Below, in pieces: positions 1,446 through 18,735 of a stretch of DNA of 64,000 nt. Position numbers and translations under genes: made by a program. This DNA is from Vulcanimicrobiota bacterium (GTDB taxonomy: Bacteria; Vulcanimicrobiota; Vulcanimicrobiia; Eremiobacterales; Eremiobacteraceae), in the NCBI GenBank assembly GCA_963805945.1, contig CAWDVP010000006.1, positions 448,001 to 512,000 of the forward strand, in the 5' to 3' direction. Within the stretch, counting starts at the first letter, position 1; every line of letters starts with the position of its first letter. The notes below the pieces were generated by a model, which was not told the DNA's origin, made no database searches, and worked only from the letters and a program-made list of their open reading frames with translations.

Positions 1446-1472
1446 GTAGGGGTCGATCTTCAGATCGACCCT
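1446..1472 (+). repeat. GTAG-type REP-like hairpin (copy A)
   Basis: GTAG-GGGTCGATC-TTCA-GATCGACCC-T; near-identical to copies at 9043, 18675 and 18710. Confidence 0.85.
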
Positions 1473-2421: not shown

Positions 2422-3600
2422 TCAGGTTTGCCATATGCCGCGCATCAGCAACGCGAAGTTCTTGCCGGGCGCGATGGTGCCCATCACCACGGGATGGCGG
2501 GCTCCGGTCGCCGACGGCAGGTTGTTGGCGCGGCCGTGCAGCGCCTCGTACCCGAGCACGGCGAACGCCATCGCCTCCTTCGCGTCCACCGGCATGCCGA
2601 ACGCGTCCGAACGCTCGATGACCGCGCGCACCGAGCGCTTGCTCAGCTCTTCTTCGAGCGCGGTCATCAGCGCGCGATTATGCACGCCGCCGCCCGAGAC
2701 CACGAGCAGCGCGCAATCGCGCGGCACGGCGGCGGCGATGGTGCGCGCGGTAAGCGTGGTGACGGTGGCGATCAAATTCGGTCCCGTGACGCCGAGATTA
2801 GCGGCGCGCTGGAACACATCGCCGGCATAGGCCTCGCCGAACTCCTCGCGTCCGGTTGACTTGGGCGACGGGCGCCGGAACCACGCGTTCTCCATGAGCT
2901 CGTCGAGCAGCACCTCGGACACGCGGCCGCTCAGGCCGATGGCACCACCGCGATCGTAGCGCTGCACGCCATGCGTCTCGAAGCGCACGCATGCGTCGAT
3001 GAGCATGTTGCCCGGGCCGGTGTCGAACGCCCGCACATGCTCCGGGCCGCATCCCGCGGGCAGCCACGTCACGTTGGCGATCCCGCCGATATTAAGCGCC
3101 ATGCGGCTCTCGGTGGGGCTCGTGAGCAGGAGGTGATCGACGAACGGCACGAGCGGCGCGCCCTCACCGCCGGCCGCGACATCGGCGACGCGGAAGTCCC
3201 CGACGCTCGTGATGCCGGTGGCCTCGGCGATGATCGCGGGCGAACCGATCTGCAGGGTGGCGCGCGTCTCCGTGCTGCCCGTCGTCATATGGTACAGCGT
3301 CTGACCGTGCGAGGCGATCGCGTGAACGCCGCTGAGTTCGATGCTGTTGCGCTGCGCGAGCCGCAGCGCCGCTTCCGCGAACGCATCGCCGACCCGCACG
3401 TTGAGCGCGCAGACGTCGCGCGTGCTGCCCGTCCGCGGCGGCAACGCCGACTCGAGCGCGGCGCGCAATTCCGTCGCATAGGGGACCGTCGCGTGGCAGA
3501 GCAGCGCGACGTCGAGCGTATCGCCGTGGCGCTCGACGTCCACCGCCGCGGCGTCGATGCCGTCGAGCGACGTGCCCGACATCAGCCCGATGATGCGCAT
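2422..3600 (-). CDS. anmK: Anhydro-N-acetylmuramic acid kinase
   Basis: IGLMSGTSLDGID, SHGQT, DFRVADVAAGGEGAPLVP, NIGGIAN, FDTGPGNMLID, KSTGREEF, KEAMAFA. Confidence 0.97.
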   Translation of the reverse strand: MRIIGLMSGTSLDGIDAAAVDVERHGDTLDVALLCHATVPYATELRAALESALPPRTGSTRDVCALNVRVGDAFAEAALRLAQRNSIELSGVHAIASHGQTLYHMTTGSTETRATLQIGSPAIIAEATGITSVGDFRVADVAAGGEGAPLVPFVDHLLLTSPTESRMALNIGGIANVTWLPAGCGPEHVRAFDTGPGNMLIDACVRFETHGVQRYDRGGAIGLSGRVSEVLLDELMENAWFRRPSPKSTGREEFGEAYAGDVFQRAANLGVTGPNLIATVTTLTARTIAAAVPRDCALLVVSGGGVHNRALMTALEEELSKRSVRAVIERSDAFGMPVDAKEAMAFAVLGYEALHGRANNLPSATGARHPVVMGTIAPGKNFALLMRGIWQT

Positions 3601-4680
3601 CTACGCGGCCTCGCTCGTCGCGCAGGCGACGACCTCGTCGTGCAGCGCTACGCGCAGATCCGCGATCGGTCCGGGCTCGCGCGAGAGGTAGACCCGATTG
3701 GTGAGCAGGACGACGGTGAGCTCGCGCGCCGGGTCGACGAACACCGATGTGCCGGTGTAGCCGGTGTGCCCGAATGACTCCGCGGAGAGCTTGTGCCCCC
3801 ACGGTCTGGCATCGGCAGGCTTAAGCGCCCAACCGAGGCCGCGGCGTTCACCATTGCCCGCTGCTTGTTCGCGGATCGCCGCGAGCGCTGTCGGCCGCAG
3901 CAGCATTGGTCGGCCGGCGGCCTGGCCGACCTCGCGATACATCTCGGCGAGTCGAGCGACGTCGTGCACGGTGCCGAACAGCCCCGCATGGCCCGCGACG
4001 CCGCCCATGGACCAGCATGTCTCGTCGTGCACCTCGCCGCACAGCAGGCGGCCGCGCCACGCGTCGCGCTCGGTGCAGACGACGCGCGCGAGCAGTTCGC
4101 CCTGCGGCCGATAACCGCACGTCGAGATCGCCAGCGGGTCGAACACCATGCTCTGCAGCGCGAGCGGCAGCGCCAGCCCGGAGAGCCGCGCGACCGCTTC
4201 ACCGAGCAGGATGAAGCCGCAATCGCTGTAGACGACCACCTCGCCCGGCGCGTGCACGAGCGGTGTCGCACAGGCGCGCTCGATGACGTGCGCGGCGTCG
4301 ACCTCCGCCCGCGCGTTGACGCTCGGCGGCAATCCCGATGTGTGGCTCAGCAGATGGCGGTAGGTGACCGCCTTTCGTCGCGGGTCGCGGCCGGCGAAGC
4401 GCGGGAACGTCTCGAGGATGGAGTCGTCGAGCGCGAACGTACGGCGGTCGAGCAGCACGAGCATCGCGGTGGTGACGGCGATCTTGGTGAGCGAGGCGAG
4501 ATCGAAGAGCGCATCCAGCATCGCGATCGGGCCGCCAGGCGACGATTCGCCGAAGGCCCCCTCGCAGACGATCGCTCCGGCCTGTCGCACCTGCACGACG
4601 GCGCACGAGCACACGCTGCCGATGGCCTCTTCGACCATGCGCAGCACCGCGCTGAAACGCTCCGGACCGCGCTCGCTCAC
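3601..4680 (-). CDS. Serine hydrolase, beta-lactamase/AmiE family
   Basis: FDLASLTK (SxxK), LLSHTSGL, YSD, GEVHD, GHAGLF, FGHTGYTGT; lies within the recycling operon. Confidence 0.85.
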   Translation of the reverse strand: MSERGPERFSAVLRMVEEAIGSVCSCAVVQVRQAGAIVCEGAFGESSPGGPIAMLDALFDLASLTKIAVTTAMLVLLDRRTFALDDSILETFPRFAGRDPRRKAVTYRHLLSHTSGLPPSVNARAEVDAAHVIERACATPLVHAPGEVVVYSDCGFILLGEAVARLSGLALPLALQSMVFDPLAISTCGYRPQGELLARVVCTERDAWRGRLLCGEVHDETCWSMGGVAGHAGLFGTVHDVARLAEMYREVGQAAGRPMLLRPTALAAIREQAAGNGERRGLGWALKPADARPWGHKLSAESFGHTGYTGTSVFVDPARELTVVLLTNRVYLSREPGPIADLRVALHDEVVACATSEAA

Positions 4681-6242
4681 GGCGCGCTCGACGCCACATG
4701 CGGCGCGGCGATCGTGACCGGTGCACGGCCGGGCGCCTGTGTCCGACCGAGCAGCACGTCGGCGGCGGCAGCGAGCGCTGCATCGTCATCGCCGAACGAG
4801 GCGACGACCGCGACGGTTTCGGGGAGCACGGCCGCATCGTAGGGTCCCAACGCCGCGACCGCGATCGTCGGTTTGCCGTACAGCGCGAGGTCGGCCGCCA
4901 AACGCGCTTGCAGCGGGTGGCGCAGCGCGTCGCGCGTAACGATGACGAAGGCGTCCGCCGACGCTGCCGCTAGTAGCGCCTGTTTGTATTCCTGCCCGGC
5001 CGGATCGAGACTGCGCAGCTGCTCGCTGACGTGCGCGCCGCCGGCCGCCAGCGTCTTGCCGAACGCGCTGCTCACGCGCGCGCTCGAAGGCTGGCCGCCG
5101 CCGGCGATGCAGTTGATCACGAGGATGCGTGCGTCCGGCGACCCCGGCAGCGGCGGCACGCCGCCGGCGCCACGGAGCAGCGTGATGGCACGTCGCGCCG
5201 CCTCCTTGAAGATGTCTGTAGCGGGCGGATCTTTAGATCCGCCCTGGCGTTCAGCATATCGCATGCGCAGCGCGTCGACGCGCGCCAAGCTTGCGGTCAC
5301 CCGCTCCGGGTCGAGCCGACCTTCGCGCAGCGCGCGGCCAAGCGCGTCGCGCGCCGCGCGCGCCGCATCGAGCGAATGCGAGAACAGCACGAGGTCCGCG
5401 CCGGCTTGGACGGCGAGCACGGCTGCTTCGCCGAGCGGATAGCGCTGCGCCACGGCCTGCATCTCCATGTCGTCGGTGCAGATGACGCCGTCGAACGACA
5501 ACTCGTGCCGCAGGATGTCGGTGAGGATGACGTGCGACAGCGTCGCCGGCGCGCCGCTTCGGTCCACGGCGGGCAGCCCGACGTGTGCGGTCATCACCAC
5601 GTCGACGCCCGCGTCGATCGCGGCACGGAACGGCACGAATTCGCGCGCTCGAAGGCGTTCGAGATCGCTGACCACGCTGGGAAGACCGGTGTGTGAATCG
5701 TCCTCTGTGTCGCCGTGGCCGGGGAAGTGTTTGGCGCATGAACCGATGCCGGCGTCGTGCAGCCCGTGCACGGCTGCGGTGACGTGCCGAGCGACGGCGT
5801 GCGGATCGTCGCCGAAAGAACGCAGTCCGATCACCGGATTGAGCGGATTGGTGTTGACGTCGGCGACCGGAGCGAGATCGAGCATGATGCCGAGCGCGGC
5901 GGCTTCTGCTCCGATCCGCGCATGCACGGCGCGCGTGAGCTCGACGTCATCGGCGGCGCCCAGCGCCATGGCCGAGGGTGGATGCGAGCCGGCTGCGCCG
6001 AGCCGCTCGACCACGCCGCCTTCTTGATCCACGGCGATGAGCAGCGGCTTGCATCGAGCGGCGCGCGCTGCCGCCTGCAAGGCGCCGGTCAGCGCGACGG
6101 TCGTTTCGGAGCCATCGATATTCGGGCGAAAGAGGATGGCTCCGGCGGTTCCGGCAATGAAATCCAACGTCCCGGCCGATGGGGACGCTCCTTCGAAACC
6201 GACCAAGAGCAGACCGCCTATCCGGTCCGCGAGCGCCTCCAT
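4677..6242 (-). CDS. nagZ: Beta-N-acetylhexosaminidase (GH3, two-domain)
   Basis: AVDQEGG, APVADVN, RSFG, KHFPGHGDTEDDSH, VMTAH, TDDMEM. Start placed at MEALADRIG (ATG 6242). Confidence 0.93.
   Translation of the reverse strand: MEALADRIGGLLLVGFEGASPSAGTLDFIAGTAGAILFRPNIDGSETTVALTGALQAAARAARCKPLLIAVDQEGGVVERLGAAGSHPPSAMALGAADDVELTRAVHARIGAEAAALGIMLDLAPVADVNTNPLNPVIGLRSFGDDPHAVARHVTAAVHGLHDAGIGSCAKHFPGHGDTEDDSHTGLPSVVSDLERLRAREFVPFRAAIDAGVDVVMTAHVGLPAVDRSGAPATLSHVILTDILRHELSFDGVICTDDMEMQAVAQRYPLGEAAVLAVQAGADLVLFSHSLDAARAARDALGRALREGRLDPERVTASLARVDALRMRYAERQGGSKDPPATDIFKEAARRAITLLRGAGGVPPLPGSPDARILVINCIAGGGQPSSARVSSAFGKTLAAGGAHVSEQLRSLDPAGQEYKQALLAAASADAFVIVTRDALRHPLQARLAADLALYGKPTIAVAALGPYDAAVLPETVAVVASFGDDDAALAAAADVLLGRTQAPGRAPVTIAAPHVASSAP
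5218..5245 (+). repeat. REP-like hairpin inside the nagZ coding sequence (copy C)
   Basis: GTAG-C-GGGCGGATC-TTTA-GATCCGCCC-T; compensatory C/G swap relative to copy D. Confidence 0.8.
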
Positions 6243-6321
6243 GCCTGCCTCTCCCGGTAGCCACACGGGTCGCGGCCCGCCGTCACCGTCTCGTACAAGA
6301 ACGCGCGCCGCACCCCCTCTC

Positions 6322-9027
6322 ATGAAGGACGGACCCTTGAAGCGCCTCACTCAACTCGTGACCATCGTCTCGATCGCCATCCTCGCCGCCGCTTTCCCGC
6401 CTTCGCGCGGCTGCGCCGATGCGGCACCCGGCGGCGACGCAACGGTCACTCGCGCGACCCTGCCGAACGGCCTGCGCGTCGTCATCGTGCGCAACTCGCT
6501 TGCGCCGGTCGTCAACGTGCAGGTCGTCTATCTCGCCGGCGCGGATGAGACCCCGCCGGGCTTTCCGGGCATGGCGCACGCGCAGGAGCACATGGCGTTC
6601 GCGCGCGGCATGACCGGGCTCACCGCGAACCAGCTGGCCGACATCGGCACCCTTATGGGCTCGTACGACAATGCGCAGACCGAGCAGACGCTCACGCGCT
6701 ACTTCTATGTCGTGCCGACCGAGGATCTCGGTTACGCGCTCAAGGTCTTCTCGATACAGATGCGCGGCGTGCTGGACGCCAACGACGAATGGGCGCAGGA
6801 ACGAGGCGCGATCGAGCAAGAGGTCGCCGCCGATCTTTCCAATCCGTTCTATCGTTTCTTCGCCGCCGCCCAGAACGATCTCTACGCAGGCACGCCGTAT
6901 GCGCACGACGCGCTCGGCACGCGTCCGTCCTTCGACAAGACGACCGGCGCGATGCTCAAGCAGTTCTACGACGCGTGGTACCACCCGAACAACGCGATCC
7001 TCTTCATCGTCGGCGATGTCGATCCGCAGCCGACGCTTGATTCGGTGAAGCAGCTCTTCGGCGCGATTCCGAGCCACGCGCTGCCGGCGCGGCCCGCGGT
7101 CCATCTGCAGCCGCTCAAGGCCAAGACGCTTACGCTGGACGGCGACCAGGGATTCGCCGTCGCGTTCGTCGGCTATCGTCTGCCGGGCATCAATGATAAG
7201 GATTTCGCCGCATCGCAGATCCTCGGCGATGTCCTTGCGAGCCAGCGCGGCGATCTCTATGCGCTCGGGCCGCAAGGCAAGGCCTTGCAGGCCGGCTACT
7301 TCCCGGTCACGTCGCTGCCCAAGGCGAGCACGGGCATCGTCTATGCCGCGCTGCCTCCAGGAGCGGACACCAAGGGCATGGCCGACACGCTCAAGAGCGT
7401 CATCGCCGACTATCAGAAGAACGGCGTACCAACCGACCTCGTCGCGGCGGCGCAGCGTCGCGTCGTCGCACAAGCGCAGTTCCGCCGAAATTCCATCAGC
7501 GGTCTCGCCGAGGCCTGGGTCAATGCGATCGCCATCGAAGGGCATGACTCGCCTGATGACAGCGTCGCAGCGCTCCAGCGGGTGACGGTCGACGACGTGA
7601 ACCGCGTGCTGCGGCGCTATTTCGTCAACGCGACCGCGCTCGTCGGCATCGTCAACCCGAAACCGGCCGGCAAGCCCGTCGCGTCGAAAGGTTTCGGCGG
7701 GGAGGAGTCGTTCGCACCGAAGGATGCCAAGGAGACGACGCTGCCCGACTGGGCGAAGGGCCTCGTGGCATCGATTGCAGTGCCGAAGTCGACCACCAAT
7801 CCGACGTCGTTCACACTGCCAAACGGCCTGCACATCATCGTGCAGCCCGAGCGCATCAGCCCCACCGTCACGGTCATCGGCCAGGTGAAGAACAACTCCG
7901 ATCTCCAGACCGCGCCGGGCAAAGACGGCGTCGATCAAGTGCTGGGCGGGCTGTTCACATACGGCACGACGACGCTCGACCGGCTGGCGTACCGCAAGGC
8001 TCTGGACGACATCGCCGCGCGAGCACAACCAGGTGCGAACTTCTCGCTCTCAGTGCTCTCGTCGGACTTCGATCGCGGCGTCCAGCTGCTCGCCGACGGC
8101 GTGCTCCACCCCGCGCTGCCCGCGCCGGCTTTTGCGATCGTGCAGAAACAGACCGCGGGCGCTCTCGCGGGGCAGTTGGAGAGCCCGGATTATCTCGCCG
8201 TGATCGCGCTCGTCAAAGCGCTCTACCCACCGACCGATCCTCAACAACGCTGGCCTTCGGTCGCCAGCGTGAACGCGCTGACGCTTGACGACGCGAAGGC
8301 GTACTACACGACGGTGTTCCGGCCCGACGTCACGACGATCGTCGTCATCGGCGACGTGACGCCCGACGGCGCGAAAGCGACGATCGAGCGTTGGTTCGGC
8401 ACATGGACGGCCAGCGGTCCGGCGCCGCAGACCGAATATCCGCCGGCGCCGAACAACGGGCCGTCCGCTGCAAGCGTGCCAGCGACCGGGGTAGTGCAAG
8501 ATTCGGTGACGCTGCAAGAGACCATCGGTTTGCTGCGATCAGATCCGGACTACTACGCGATGAACGTCGCCAGCTCGATCCTAGGCGGCGGGTTCTACGC
8601 CTCGCGGTTGTCGATCGATCTGCGTCAAAAAGCAGGCTTGGTCTATTCCGTCGGCTCCGAAGCAGATATCGGCAAGACCCGCAGTTCGTTCGCGATCTAC
8701 TACGGCTGCGATCCGCCGAAGGTCTCGCAGGCGCGCGCGCTCATCGAGCGCGACCTGCGCGACATGCAGACCGCGGTGCCCACGGCCAACGAGCTGCAGC
8801 GCTCGAAGGTCCAACTGCTCGCGGATATCCCGCTAAGCGAGCAGAGCGAGAACAGCATCGCGGGTGGCCTGCTGGAGCGAGCCCTGCTCGGCTTGCCGCT
8901 CGATGAGCCCCAGATCGCCGGCAACCACTACGCCGCGATGACCGGCGAGCAGGTGCGCGATGTGATGGCGAAGTGGGTCCGGGTGCCGGACTTCGTGCAA
9001 ATCGTGACCGGACCGCCGCCCCAATAG
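6322..9027 (+). CDS. Secreted M16 (pitrilysin family) zinc peptidase
   Basis: Signal peptide, TLPNGL twice (two halves), inverted zinc motif HAQEH, WYHPNNA, SRL...LRQKAGLVY. Confidence 0.92.
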   Translation: MKDGPLKRLTQLVTIVSIAILAAAFPPSRGCADAAPGGDATVTRATLPNGLRVVIVRNSLAPVVNVQVVYLAGADETPPGFPGMAHAQEHMAFARGMTGLTANQLADIGTLMGSYDNAQTEQTLTRYFYVVPTEDLGYALKVFSIQMRGVLDANDEWAQERGAIEQEVAADLSNPFYRFFAAAQNDLYAGTPYAHDALGTRPSFDKTTGAMLKQFYDAWYHPNNAILFIVGDVDPQPTLDSVKQLFGAIPSHALPARPAVHLQPLKAKTLTLDGDQGFAVAFVGYRLPGINDKDFAASQILGDVLASQRGDLYALGPQGKALQAGYFPVTSLPKASTGIVYAALPPGADTKGMADTLKSVIADYQKNGVPTDLVAAAQRRVVAQAQFRRNSISGLAEAWVNAIAIEGHDSPDDSVAALQRVTVDDVNRVLRRYFVNATALVGIVNPKPAGKPVASKGFGGEESFAPKDAKETTLPDWAKGLVASIAVPKSTTNPTSFTLPNGLHIIVQPERISPTVTVIGQVKNNSDLQTAPGKDGVDQVLGGLFTYGTTTLDRLAYRKALDDIAARAQPGANFSLSVLSSDFDRGVQLLADGVLHPALPAPAFAIVQKQTAGALAGQLESPDYLAVIALVKALYPPTDPQQRWPSVASVNALTLDDAKAYYTTVFRPDVTTIVVIGDVTPDGAKATIERWFGTWTASGPAPQTEYPPAPNNGPSAASVPATGVVQDSVTLQETIGLLRSDPDYYAMNVASSILGGGFYASRLSIDLRQKAGLVYSVGSEADIGKTRSSFAIYYGCDPPKVSQARALIERDLRDMQTAVPTANELQRSKVQLLADIPLSEQSENSIAGGLLERALLGLPLDEPQIAGNHYAAMTGEQVRDVMAKWVRVPDFVQIVTGPPPQ

Positions 9028-9042
9028 CCCTGCGCCACATAT

Positions 9043-9069
9043 GTAGGGGCCGATCTTTAGATCGGCCCT
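9043..9069 (+). repeat. GTAG-type REP-like hairpin (copy D)
   Basis: GTAG-GGGCCGATC-TTTA-GATCGGCCC-T, 15 nt after the peptidase stop codon. Confidence 0.85.
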
Positions 9070-17911: not shown

Positions 17912-18675
17912 TCGCGAACTGGGTCGGCCTCGAGACGATCGTGCGGCGCGAGTTCAAACGCACGATGATGACCATCAATCAGGTCGTGTGGCCGCCGATC
18001 ATCTCGACGCTGCTGTTCCTCTTCATCTTCGGCGTCGGCTTGAGCAACTCGATGCGCACGATGAGCGGCGTGCCGTACGTGCAGTTCCTCTTGCCAGGCC
18101 TGGTGATGCTCAACGTCATCTCGTCGAGTTACGACGAATCGTCGTCATCGCTCTTCCAGCAGCGCTTCCAGATGTCCATTCAGGAGCTGCTCATCGCGCC
18201 GCTCTCGCACTTGGAGCTTCTGCTCGGCTACCTCGTCGGCAGCATCCTGCGCGGCGTGGTCATCGGCGGACTCGTCATGGGGATCGGGCTGCTCATCGTG
18301 CACGTCGCGCCGCAGGACGGGCTGGTGCTCTTCTACTTCATGCTGATCACGTCGCTGCTGTTCTCCGCCGTGGGCATGATCGCGGGGCTGCTGGCGAAGA
18401 CGTTCGACAATCTCGCCATTTTGACGACGTTCATCATCACGCCCCTGACCTATGTGGGCGGCGTCTTCTCGAGCATCCACCAACTGCCCCCGATCGTCCA
18501 ACGGATCGCGTACTTCAACCCGATGCAGTATATGGTGGACGGGCTGCGCTTCGGCTACCTTGGGGCGTCGGACATCAATCCGATGGTGGACGCCGCGGTC
18601 GTCACCGTGCTCGCCATCGCCGCGTTCTCCGTCGCGTATTGGATGACCAAGAAGGGCGTCAACCTCAAGGTCTAG
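17908..18675 (+). CDS. ABC-2 transporter permease (YadH-like)
   Basis: RREFKR, YVQFLLPGL, ITPLTYVGGVF, FNPMQYMVDGLRFG. Confidence 0.9.
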   Translation: MIANWVGLETIVRREFKRTMMTINQVVWPPIISTLLFLFIFGVGLSNSMRTMSGVPYVQFLLPGLVMLNVISSSYDESSSSLFQQRFQMSIQELLIAPLSHLELLLGYLVGSILRGVVIGGLVMGIGLLIVHVAPQDGLVLFYFMLITSLLFSAVGMIAGLLAKTFDNLAILTTFIITPLTYVGGVFSSIHQLPPIVQRIAYFNPMQYMVDGLRFGYLGASDINPMVDAAVVTVLAIAAFSVAYWMTKKGVNLKV

Positions 18676-18735
18676 GGCCGATCTGAAGATCGGCCCCTAC
18701 CTTGCTCGAGGGCCGATCTAAAGATCGGCCCCTAC
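18675..18735 (-). repeat. Two tandem GTAG-type REP-like hairpins (copies E and F), 35-bp period
   Basis: Plus strand GGGCCGATC-TGAA-GATCGGCCC-CTAC (18675-18700) and GGGCCGATC-TAAA-GATCGGCCC-CTAC (18710-18735), between convergent genes. Confidence 0.88.

What the first reader, a model, noticed from the sequence alone, without database searches (positions are those of the whole stretch)
5218..5245. REP copy translated as the NagZ interdomain linker
GTAG-C-GGGCGGATC-TTTA-GATCCGCCC-T differs from intergenic copy D only by one inserted base and a compensatory base-pair swap. It lies antisense to nagZ, so the TAG is not read as a stop. It encodes QGGSKDPPAT between the GH3 TIM barrel (RVDALRMRY) and the C-terminal domain (AARRAITLLR).
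Basis: partly seen in the sequence, partly recalled or inferred. Interest (0 to 1): 0.78.

Follow-up and report, generated by a model that had tools for sequence, protein, structure and literature searches.

The report
REP hairpin translated in NagZ linker
A copy of this soil bacterium's small mobile DNA hairpin (a REP element) lies in frame inside a cell-wall-recycling enzyme gene and is translated as the floppy tether between the enzyme's two domains, which is a tolerated-passenger situation already known from other bacteria.

Summary
Window 5218-5245 (+) is GTAG-C-GGGCGGATC-TTTA-GATCCGCCC-T. It is a true member of a REP family with about 150 copies in this Eremiobacterota genome. It scores 36.0 bits on the family matrix, against 6.1 bits for the best site in the reversed genome. 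The family was found in none of 40 relatives, and the genome has one RAYT gene flanked by REPs. The copy lies antisense in a two-domain GH3 NagZ gene (4677-6242, -) and encodes QGGSKDPPAT. An AlphaFold model (pLDDT 93.9) places those residues in the only coil between the two domains.

- The extra C after GTAG is shared with three other copies.
- The stem-pair swap is unique. It turns two Arg codons into Gly and Pro while keeping the hairpin paired.
- The element did not lengthen the linker. The nearest homologue (86% identical) has an unrelated linker four residues longer, and the query's linker ties for shortest of 62. So the REP replaced ancestral linker codons.

Intragenic GTAG REPs, including some in glycoside hydrolases, and the idea that they sit in linkers are already published (Di Nocera 2013). 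This scan has noted the same on other DNA, including ribH of this genome. Verdict: real, a new member of a known kind, modest interest.

The parts
5218..5245 (+). REP copy inside nagZ: GTAG 5218-5221, spacer C 5222, 9-bp stem / TTTA loop / 9-bp stem 5223-5244, T 5245. It is bordered by C|T dinucleotides on both sides (C5216-T5217 and C5244-T5245).
   Evidence: Matrix score 36.0 bits against a control maximum of 6.1 bits.
5217..5246 (-). The ten codons CAG GGC GGA TCT AAA GAT CCG CCC GCT ACA = QGGSKDPPAT. These are residues 369-378 of the 557-codon ORF and 333-342 of the annotated 521-aa protein.
   Evidence: They lie in the coil 331-343 of the model; the 331-340 block has mean pLDDT 69.
4677..6242 (-). 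Two-domain GH3 beta-N-acetylglucosaminidase (NagZ-type) gene, 521 aa counted from the ATG used in the public annotation. The open frame extends upstream to 6350.
   Evidence: Pfam GH3_N E=1e-75; GH3_C 28.2 bits, below its 31-bit cut-off. PDB 6k5j E=2.4e-89 over residues 4-511. P0122 is the 521-aa annotated form.
9043..9069 (+).
18675..18735 (-). Two further REP copies (hairpins 18675-18696 and 18710-18731, each followed by CTAC) directly after a stop codon.
1446..1471 (+). Further REP copy of the GGGTCGATC sub-type (genome C6:449446-449471).

Best explanation
A genuine copy of this genome's own GTAG-tagged REP family became lodged in the hypervariable tether between the two domains of the GH3 NagZ gene. 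These are small hairpin elements thought to be spread by the single RAYT (Y1/HUH) transposase.

The copy lies antisense and in one of the four stop-free frames of the element, so the ribosome reads it as QGGSKDPPAT. That peptide makes up 10 of the 13 residues of the interdomain coil. The enzyme tolerates it because this tether is unconstrained in both sequence and length.

The element did not add length. It took the place of roughly 13-14 ancestral linker codons. It is best read as a neutral passenger, not a designed part.

Shown: family membership, the reading frame, the structural position, absence of the peptide from all homologues examined, and the linker not being longer.
Inferred: the direction of events (REP gain in this lineage), RAYT as the agent, neutrality, and actual translation.
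For: Family membership:
- There are 47 exact matches to the stem pattern in the genome, 103 exact matches to GTAGGGGYCGANCTTYAGNTCGRCCC and 154 copies in an inclusive census.
- The strict census finds 112 sites in the genome and 0 in the reversed genome.
- The matrix score is 36.0 bits against a control maximum of 6.1.
- The loop orientation (TTTA on the GTAG strand) matches the family, where 68 and 36 of 110 copies have TTTA or TTCA.
- The GTAG-C spacer also occurs at C3:79034, C6:263647 and C4:97451.

Cognate transposase:
- A PF01797 ORF at C3:119708-120025 carries PDHIHVV and GYYDR motifs. It is flanked by two REPs on each side in opposite orientation.

Coding and structure:
- The ORF is continuous, with GH3_N at 69-359 and GH3_C at 389-549.
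- The model has pLDDT 93.9 and pTM 0.93. Coil 331-343 lies between helices 312-330 and 344-352, and the REP-encoded residues are 333-342.
- Residues that are invariant across the 62 aligned sequences are, by definition, also present in this protein.

A recent, lineage-specific event:
- The family was found in 0 of 40 relatives.
- The peptide occurs in 0 of 28 orthologues and 0 of 61 homologues.
- The nearest homologue, P0002, is 86% identical. The only gaps in that alignment fall in this linker, where it reads SRGAHGAVEFIRPSADA against the query's AERQGGSKDPPAT.
- The EFIRP motif recurs in the more distant P0011, P0015 and L032. This makes the P0002-type linker the older state.

Replacement and not addition:
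- The query linker has 22 residues between two conserved anchors. The range over 62 sequences is 22-36, with median 27.
- The query is 9 residues shorter than PDB 6k5j at this point.

Precedent:
- Intragenic GTAG REPs are published, including single units of 7-10 residues in glycoside hydrolases of Opitutus terrae (PMC3733652: passages read, supplement 3).
Against: - No DNA of a close relative could be obtained, so an empty site is inferred only from a protein (P0002).
- The linker is not longer than in relatives, which a plain insertion would predict. Extra steps (a deletion or a replacement) must be assumed.
- The stem variant GGGCGGATC is unique among the copies found in this genome, so no donor copy is known.
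- The A at position -6, conserved in about 80-90% of copies, is C here.
- The swapped pair stays complementary. That could mean the hairpin is under selection, which would argue against pure neutrality.
- Translation and enzyme activity were not observed.
- One Logan contig carries the gene with a frameshift next to the element (P0003), so the intact reading is not universal in the public data.
Confidence: 0.85

Rival explanations
1. The hairpin is kept by selection for a job of its own inside nagZ. Possible jobs are an mRNA stem that pauses ribosomes between the two domains, an mRNA stem that protects the upstream message from 3' exonucleases, or a DNA site still used by the RAYT enzyme.
For: - The two changes from the consensus fall on the two partners of one base pair and keep it Watson-Crick. 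By my estimate, two random stem substitutions would do that about 2% of the time (1/17 x 1/3).
- The 66-nt mRNA context folds at -22.9 kcal/mol, z = -2.64, and 1 of 200 shuffles folds as well.
I confirmed that those hairpins lie in the ribH ORF.
Against: - Perfect pairing is the family norm: 130 of 154 copies have 9 of 9 pairs. The variant could have arisen before arrival or by hairpin-templated repair, with no selection at this site.
- No homologue has any hairpin here, so NagZ needs none.
- No expression data are available.
Confidence: 0.08
2. The hairpin was partly built in place. Ancestral linker codons (for I-R-P) supplied or anchored one arm. The rest was copied in from a REP by microhomology or template switching, or pasted between two C|T sites by RAYT cleavage and strand transfer.
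For: - The +1 frame of the element's arm reads KIRPLQ. The older linker type has EFIRPS (P0002) and EFIRPR (P0011, P0015, L032).
- This would explain both the unique stem variant and the net loss of four codons.
- The element is bordered by C|T on both sides. C|T is the cleavage dinucleotide of the studied TnpAREP enzymes (PMC8266576, passages read).
Against: - A three-residue match across frames is weak. My rough estimate of chance is 0.02-0.09.
- In L032 the I-R-P codons are ATT CGT CCG, which do not resemble the arm.
- The DNA of P0002 could not be obtained.
Confidence: 0.05
3. The resemblance is chance, or the element was placed in nagZ by an assembly error.
For: The genome is GC-rich, and other GC-rich palindromes occur in it. 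REPs are repeats, and repeats can mislead assemblers.
Against: - The score is 36.0 bits against a control maximum of 6.1, and the strict census finds 0 sites in the reversed genome.
- Both flanks are nagZ in a single frame.
- A separate Logan contig encodes the identical protein through QGGSKDPPAT.
- This copy's stem variant is unique, so it cannot be a collapsed repeat.
Confidence: 0.02

Closest known systems
Intragenic GTAG-tagged REPs ('REP-decorated' proteins), Di Nocera, De Gregorio & Rocco 2013, BMC Genomics 14:522 (PMC3733652; passages and supplement 3 read)
   Same: - A GTAG foot with a short GC-rich hairpin.
- A high-copy, mostly intergenic family with a RAYT gene flanked by REPs.
- Single units read in frame as 7-10 residues rich in G, P and A inside known enzymes, including glycoside hydrolases of Opitutus terrae (families 20, 2, 31, 28, 43 and 8).
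- The authors already suggest that such inserts are neutral because they sit in flexible linkers or loops.
   Different: - The host phylum here is Eremiobacterota.
- The host gene is a GH3 NagZ; no term among hexosaminidase, glucosaminidase, nagZ or glycosyl hydrolase matched their supplements.
- Here the element replaces linker residues and does not lengthen the protein.
- The copy carries a unique compensated stem change.
Rickettsia palindromic elements (RPEs) inserted in frame in protein genes (as summarised in the Background of PMC3733652; the original papers are recalled, not read)
   Same: A selfish palindromic repeat that is translated in frame within functional proteins, typically at surface-exposed positions.
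   Different: RPE-1 elements are much longer (recalled: about 100-150 bp) and add whole peptide segments. No RAYT link is claimed for them. Here the unit is 28 nt and adds no net length.
REPIN/RAYT systems (Bertels & Rainey 2011, PMC3116915; search listing and abstract only) and TnpAREP biochemistry (PMC8266576; passages read)
   Same: - One RAYT gene per genome, flanked by REPs.
- Singlets and inverted doublets are both present, for example C1:422883/422917 and C2:208481/208524.
- A GTAG guide, with C|T dinucleotides next to the element.
   Different: Those systems are described as extragenic. Activity of this genome's RAYT on its REPs has not been tested.

Membership tests
GTAG-tagged REP (RAYT-associated repetitive palindrome) | GTAG tetranucleotide at the 5' foot of the hairpin | tested here: met
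   GTAG lies at 5218-5221, separated from the stem by one C. The same GTAG-C form occurs in three other copies.
GTAG-tagged REP (RAYT-associated repetitive palindrome) | Short (20-40 bp) GC-rich palindrome able to form a stem-loop | tested here: met
   A perfect 9-bp stem with a 4-nt loop. It forms in the RNA fold of the 66-nt context.
GTAG-tagged REP (RAYT-associated repetitive palindrome) | Member of a high-copy dispersed family in the same genome | tested here: met
   154 copies in the inclusive census. This copy scores 36.0 bits, inside the family range of 24.3-53.3, with a control maximum of 6.1.
GTAG-tagged REP (RAYT-associated repetitive palindrome) | Cognate RAYT (Y1/HUH) gene flanked by family REPs (a REPtron) | tested here: met
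   PF01797 scores 33.3 bits at C3:119708-120025 in the genome search and 26.1 bits on the 127-aa ORF against a 23-bit cut-off. HIH and YY motifs are present. REPs lie at C3:119554, 119593, 120110 and 120155.
GTAG-tagged REP (RAYT-associated repetitive palindrome) | Extragenic location | tested here: not met
   This copy lies inside a coding frame. Of the 154 copies, 152 show no coding signal on both sides. The literature already accepts intragenic members (PMC3733652), so this does not exclude membership.
GTAG-tagged REP (RAYT-associated repetitive palindrome) | Cleavage or mobilisation by the RAYT enzyme | not testable with these tools
   This needs an in-vitro cleavage and strand-transfer assay.
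Two-domain GH3 beta-N-acetylglucosaminidase (NagZ type) | GH3 N-terminal (TIM-barrel) domain | tested here: met
   PF00933 E=1e-75, residues 69-359.
Two-domain GH3 beta-N-acetylglucosaminidase (NagZ type) | GH3 C-terminal domain following a linker | tested here: inconclusive
   PF01915 scores 28.2 bits, below the 31-bit cut-off. However, the protein aligns end to end with the solved two-domain enzyme 6k5j (E=2.4e-89), and the model has a confident alpha/beta second domain.
Two-domain GH3 beta-N-acetylglucosaminidase (NagZ type) | Conserved active-site motifs (KHFPGHG..D.H and the aspartate after C-T-D; their catalytic roles are recalled, not tested) | tested here: met
   K171, H172, F173, P174, G175, G177, D182, H184 and D257 are invariant in all 62 aligned sequences, the query included.
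Two-domain GH3 beta-N-acetylglucosaminidase (NagZ type) | Enzyme activity on GlcNAc-(anhydro)MurNAc peptides | not testable with these tools
   Context only: the two downstream genes are a beta-lactamase-fold gene and anmK.

The most novel reading that the evidence does not exclude
The REP was not simply inserted. The RAYT enzyme pasted it in place of about 13 ancestral linker codons by cleavage and strand transfer at the two C|T dinucleotides that now border it, possibly anchored on ancestral I-R-P codons that resemble one arm. It would still be a live RAYT substrate inside the gene. A public contig that lacks exactly the C of the 5' C|T site, and so encodes a one-domain NagZ, would then be a footprint of that activity. 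The element would thus be a built-in breakpoint between the catalytic domain and the accessory domain.
Probability: 0.07. Interest if true: 0.6.

Novelty: new member of a known kind. Interest (0 to 1): 0.3.

Why it matters
It adds a clean, structurally placed example from an uncultivated phylum (Eremiobacterota) to the known class of REP-decorated proteins. It shows that a REP can stand in for a linker instead of only lengthening one.

It is also a caution for annotation. A repeat called 'extragenic' can be coding, and repeat masking would break this gene.

The compensated stem change and the frameshifted public variant next to the predicted RAYT cut site are small but testable hints. They bear on whether intragenic REPs stay paired, and stay active, after they enter a gene.

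Tried and rejected
- DNA of the nearest homologue. The empty-site sequence therefore could not be read.
- More relatives. A genus-wide genome search found only the six species already seen, all at most 59% identical.
- Short protein fragments covering the linker (region 335-425, 'shorter' lengths): none found.
- Sequencing runs. Only three runs were listed, each holding 0.05-0.06 of the sampled words. When laid at 80% likeness they gave short contigs of relatives. One of them, X2 record 6, is 288 nt and has 20 differences over 263 laid bases. It runs ungapped over 4984-5246, across the element, and stops at its outer edge with 25 letters unlaid. This hints that a closer relative also carries the element, but the letters were not shown, so I do not use it as evidence. 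Parts of the stretch without cover say nothing.
- The unique stem variant in relatives. Only single, unrelated 1-mismatch sites turned up, in G014 and G023. No donor family exists there.
- Fuzzy-regex and Markov simulation. I replaced it with the reversed-genome control and a hand estimate of about 4e-5 chance sites per genome.
- Pfam on the second in-ORF REP candidate (C2): no family matched.
- I considered and rejected the ideas that nagZ is two genes or a pseudogene split at the REP. The frame is continuous, the fusion is present in all 28 orthologues that cover the site, and the model is confident across both domains.
- Complex prediction, the RNA-model tools and fold search were not used. 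The question did not need them.

Full report
**What is there.** Window 5218-5245 (+) reads GTAG-C-GGGCGGATC-TTTA-GATCCGCCC-T. The hairpin at 5223-5244 is a perfect 9-bp stem with a 4-nt loop. A search with up to three mismatches finds three more copies in the window, at 9047, 18675 and 18710, all with the stem GGGCCGATC. Shuffles of the window give a mean of 0.21 matches. The copy at 9043-9069 lies 16 nt after a stop codon.

**The family.**
- The window is C6:448001-512000 of an 8-contig, 2.31-Mb genome, 66% G+C and 82% complete. Names attached to homologues place it in Candidatus Eremiobacterota.
- The genome holds 47 exact matches to GGGCSGATCNNNNGATCSGCCC. Only the nagZ copy has the G:C variant.
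- It holds 103 exact matches to GTAGGGGYCGANCTTYAGNTCGRCCC and 154 copies in an inclusive census, of which 139 carry GTAG and 130 have 9 of 9 stem pairs.
- The conserved unit is ATGTAG, the 22-nt hairpin, and a weak T.
- A strict census finds 112 sites in the genome and 0 in the reversed genome.
- A weight matrix from 135 other copies gives the nagZ copy 36.0 bits with a 1-nt spacer. Family members score 24.3-53.3 bits. The best reversed-genome site scores 6.1 bits. Chance is excluded.
- The 'inserted' C is not private to this copy. GTAG-C-stem also occurs at C3:79034, C6:263647 and C4:97451.
- The stem swap is private. No other copy in this genome has it. In 40 relatives only two unrelated 1-mismatch sites turned up.
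- One ORF matches the IS200-like Y1 transposase family PF01797, with 33.3 bits in the genome search and 26.1 bits on the ORF against a 23-bit cut-off. It has PDHIHVV and GYYDR motifs and lies at C3:119708-120025. Two REPs flank it on each side in opposite orientation. This is the classic RAYT arrangement.
- The family pattern was found in none of the 40 relatives searched, spanning genus, family and class. Three of those genomes (G010, G013, G016) are unpublished. No conclusion rests on them alone.

**The gene.**
- The element lies antisense in a 557-codon open frame at 4677-6350 (-). The public annotation starts at the ATG at 6242 and gives 521 aa (P0122).
- Pfam gives GH3_N at residues 69-359 (E=1e-75) and GH3_C at 389-549 (28.2 bits, under the 31-bit cut-off).
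- The protein aligns end to end with the solved two-domain GH3 N-acetylglucosaminidase 6k5j (E=2.4e-89).
- The two genes downstream on the same strand are a beta-lactamase-fold gene and anmK. The locus therefore looks like a cell-wall recycling operon.
- The ten codons at 5217-5246 read QGGSKDPPAT.
- The TAG of GTAG is on the other strand. The TAA in the loop is out of frame.

**Structure.** An AlphaFold2 model built on a 62-sequence alignment has mean pLDDT 93.9 and pTM 0.93. In 521-aa numbering, helix 312-330 ends domain 1, helix 344-352 begins domain 2, and residues 331-343 form a coil. The REP-encoded residues are 333-342. The 331-340 block has mean pLDDT 69, while its neighbours have 97 and 90. 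The element therefore encodes 10 of the 13 residues of the interdomain tether.

**Comparison with homologues.**
- In 28 orthologues taken from relatives' genomes (three from unpublished genomes), the tether varies freely in sequence and length. None has GGSKDPP.
- The same holds for 61 database homologues.
- Between two conserved anchors the query has 22 residues. This ties for the shortest of 62 sequences (range 22-36, median 27). It is also 9 residues shorter than 6k5j at this point.
- The nearest homologue, P0002 (JGI, 86% identical), is gapped against the query only here. It reads SRGAHGAVEFIRPSADA where the query reads AERQGGSKDPPAT, four residues more.
- Its EFIRP motif recurs in the more distant P0011, P0015 and L032. 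The P0002 type is therefore the older state and the REP-bearing linker is derived.
- The event was thus a replacement of about 13-14 codons by a 28-nt element, or an insertion plus a deletion. It was not a simple addition.

**The stem swap.** In this frame the consensus REP would encode G-R-S-K-D-R-P. The swapped pair changes CGA to GGA and CGG to CCG, giving G-G-S-K-D-P-P. Both changes are non-synonymous, yet the pair stays Watson-Crick. This could come from selection for pairing, from hairpin-templated repair, or from a variant that arose before arrival. I cannot tell which. The mRNA context folds at -22.9 kcal/mol (z = -2.64).

**How unusual it is in this genome.** Of the 154 copies, only two lie in an open frame with a coding-type GC3 signal on both sides: the nagZ copy and C2:67050-67071. 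I confirmed two hairpins (CGGTCGAA-TTTA and CGGTCGAC-TGAA) inside the ribH ORF at C8:47634-47679. My census was too strict to catch them.

**Loose ends.**
- P0003 comes from a 1,726-nt Logan contig. It is identical to NagZ through QGGSKDPPAT and then follows the window's +1 frame (TSSRRRRD...). This means one base is missing at C5216.
- That base is the C of the C|T dinucleotide just 5' of T-GTAG. The TnpAREP enzymes studied so far cut at C|T next to REPs (PMC8266576, passages read). Whether P0003 is a real variant or a contig error is open.
- The element is also bordered by C|T on its 3' side (C5244-T5245).
- The +1 frame of one arm reads KIRPLQ, reminiscent of the ancestral FIRP. By my rough estimate this is weak evidence.

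**What is known.** Di Nocera et al. 2013 (PMC3733652) describe GTAG REPs inside genes in several species. They list single units of 7-10 residues in glycoside hydrolases of Opitutus terrae, and they propose that such inserts are neutral because they lie in flexible linkers or loops. None of my enzyme terms for NagZ or GH3 matched their supplements. My two full-text searches surfaced no paper on REPs in NagZ, apart from that paper's general treatment of intragenic REPs. This scan has 88 earlier notes on in-frame hairpin repeats in linkers in other genomes.

**Verdict.** The observation and the reading are correct. It is a new member of a known kind, with a modest twist: replacement without added length, a compensated unique stem, and a frameshift variant at the predicted cut site.

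Noticed in passing
genome C2:67050-67071 (locus L058 about 2051-2072), outside the window: A second REP lies inside a long open frame (C2:65979-67952, minus strand) and lacks an intact GTAG (it has CCAC in place of CTAC). Its peptide NVAGRSLDRPIL sits between a beta-barrel-like C-terminus (...HFNFLGV) and a signal-peptide-like stretch (ILSVVILALALLIPARASA). The element may bridge two genes, or it may supply the GTG start and charged N-region of the downstream signal peptide. Pfam matched no family.
   Followed up: partly
They are degenerate and escaped my strict census.
   Followed up: partly
window C5216 (protein P0003): A public 1,726-nt Logan contig encodes NagZ with one base missing directly beside the REP, at the C of the C|T just 5' of T-GTAG. 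The result is a 374-aa protein with the catalytic domain, the REP peptide and a 32-residue out-of-frame tail. I cannot tell whether this is a real variant or a contig error.
   Followed up: partly
genome C3:119554-120180 (locus L031): This is the genome's only PF01797 match: a 127-aa RAYT-like ORF with HIH and YY motifs. Two REPs flank it on each side in inverted orientation. One upstream copy has GTAA in place of GTAG.
   Followed up: partly
window 2422-6242 (-): nagZ, a beta-lactamase-fold (PF00144) gene and anmK are packed end to end. The first two overlap by 4 nt and the last two abut. This suggests a translationally coupled peptidoglycan-recycling operon in an Eremiobacterota genome.
   Followed up: no
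genome-wide (one search list): Stem positions 4 and 8 of the REP vary in a fully compensated way (GGGCCGATC, GGGCCGACC, GGGTCGATC, GGGTCGACC, GGGCCGAAC, GGGTCGAGC). Distinct sub-families therefore coexist alongside a single RAYT gene. Both inverted doublets (REPIN-like) and same-orientation pairs occur.
   Followed up: no
G002 (same genus): One relative carries three near-identical copies of the nagZ orthologue on three contigs (C1, C3, C4), each 58-59% identical to the query. This points to a multi-copy region or an unresolved assembly.
   Followed up: no
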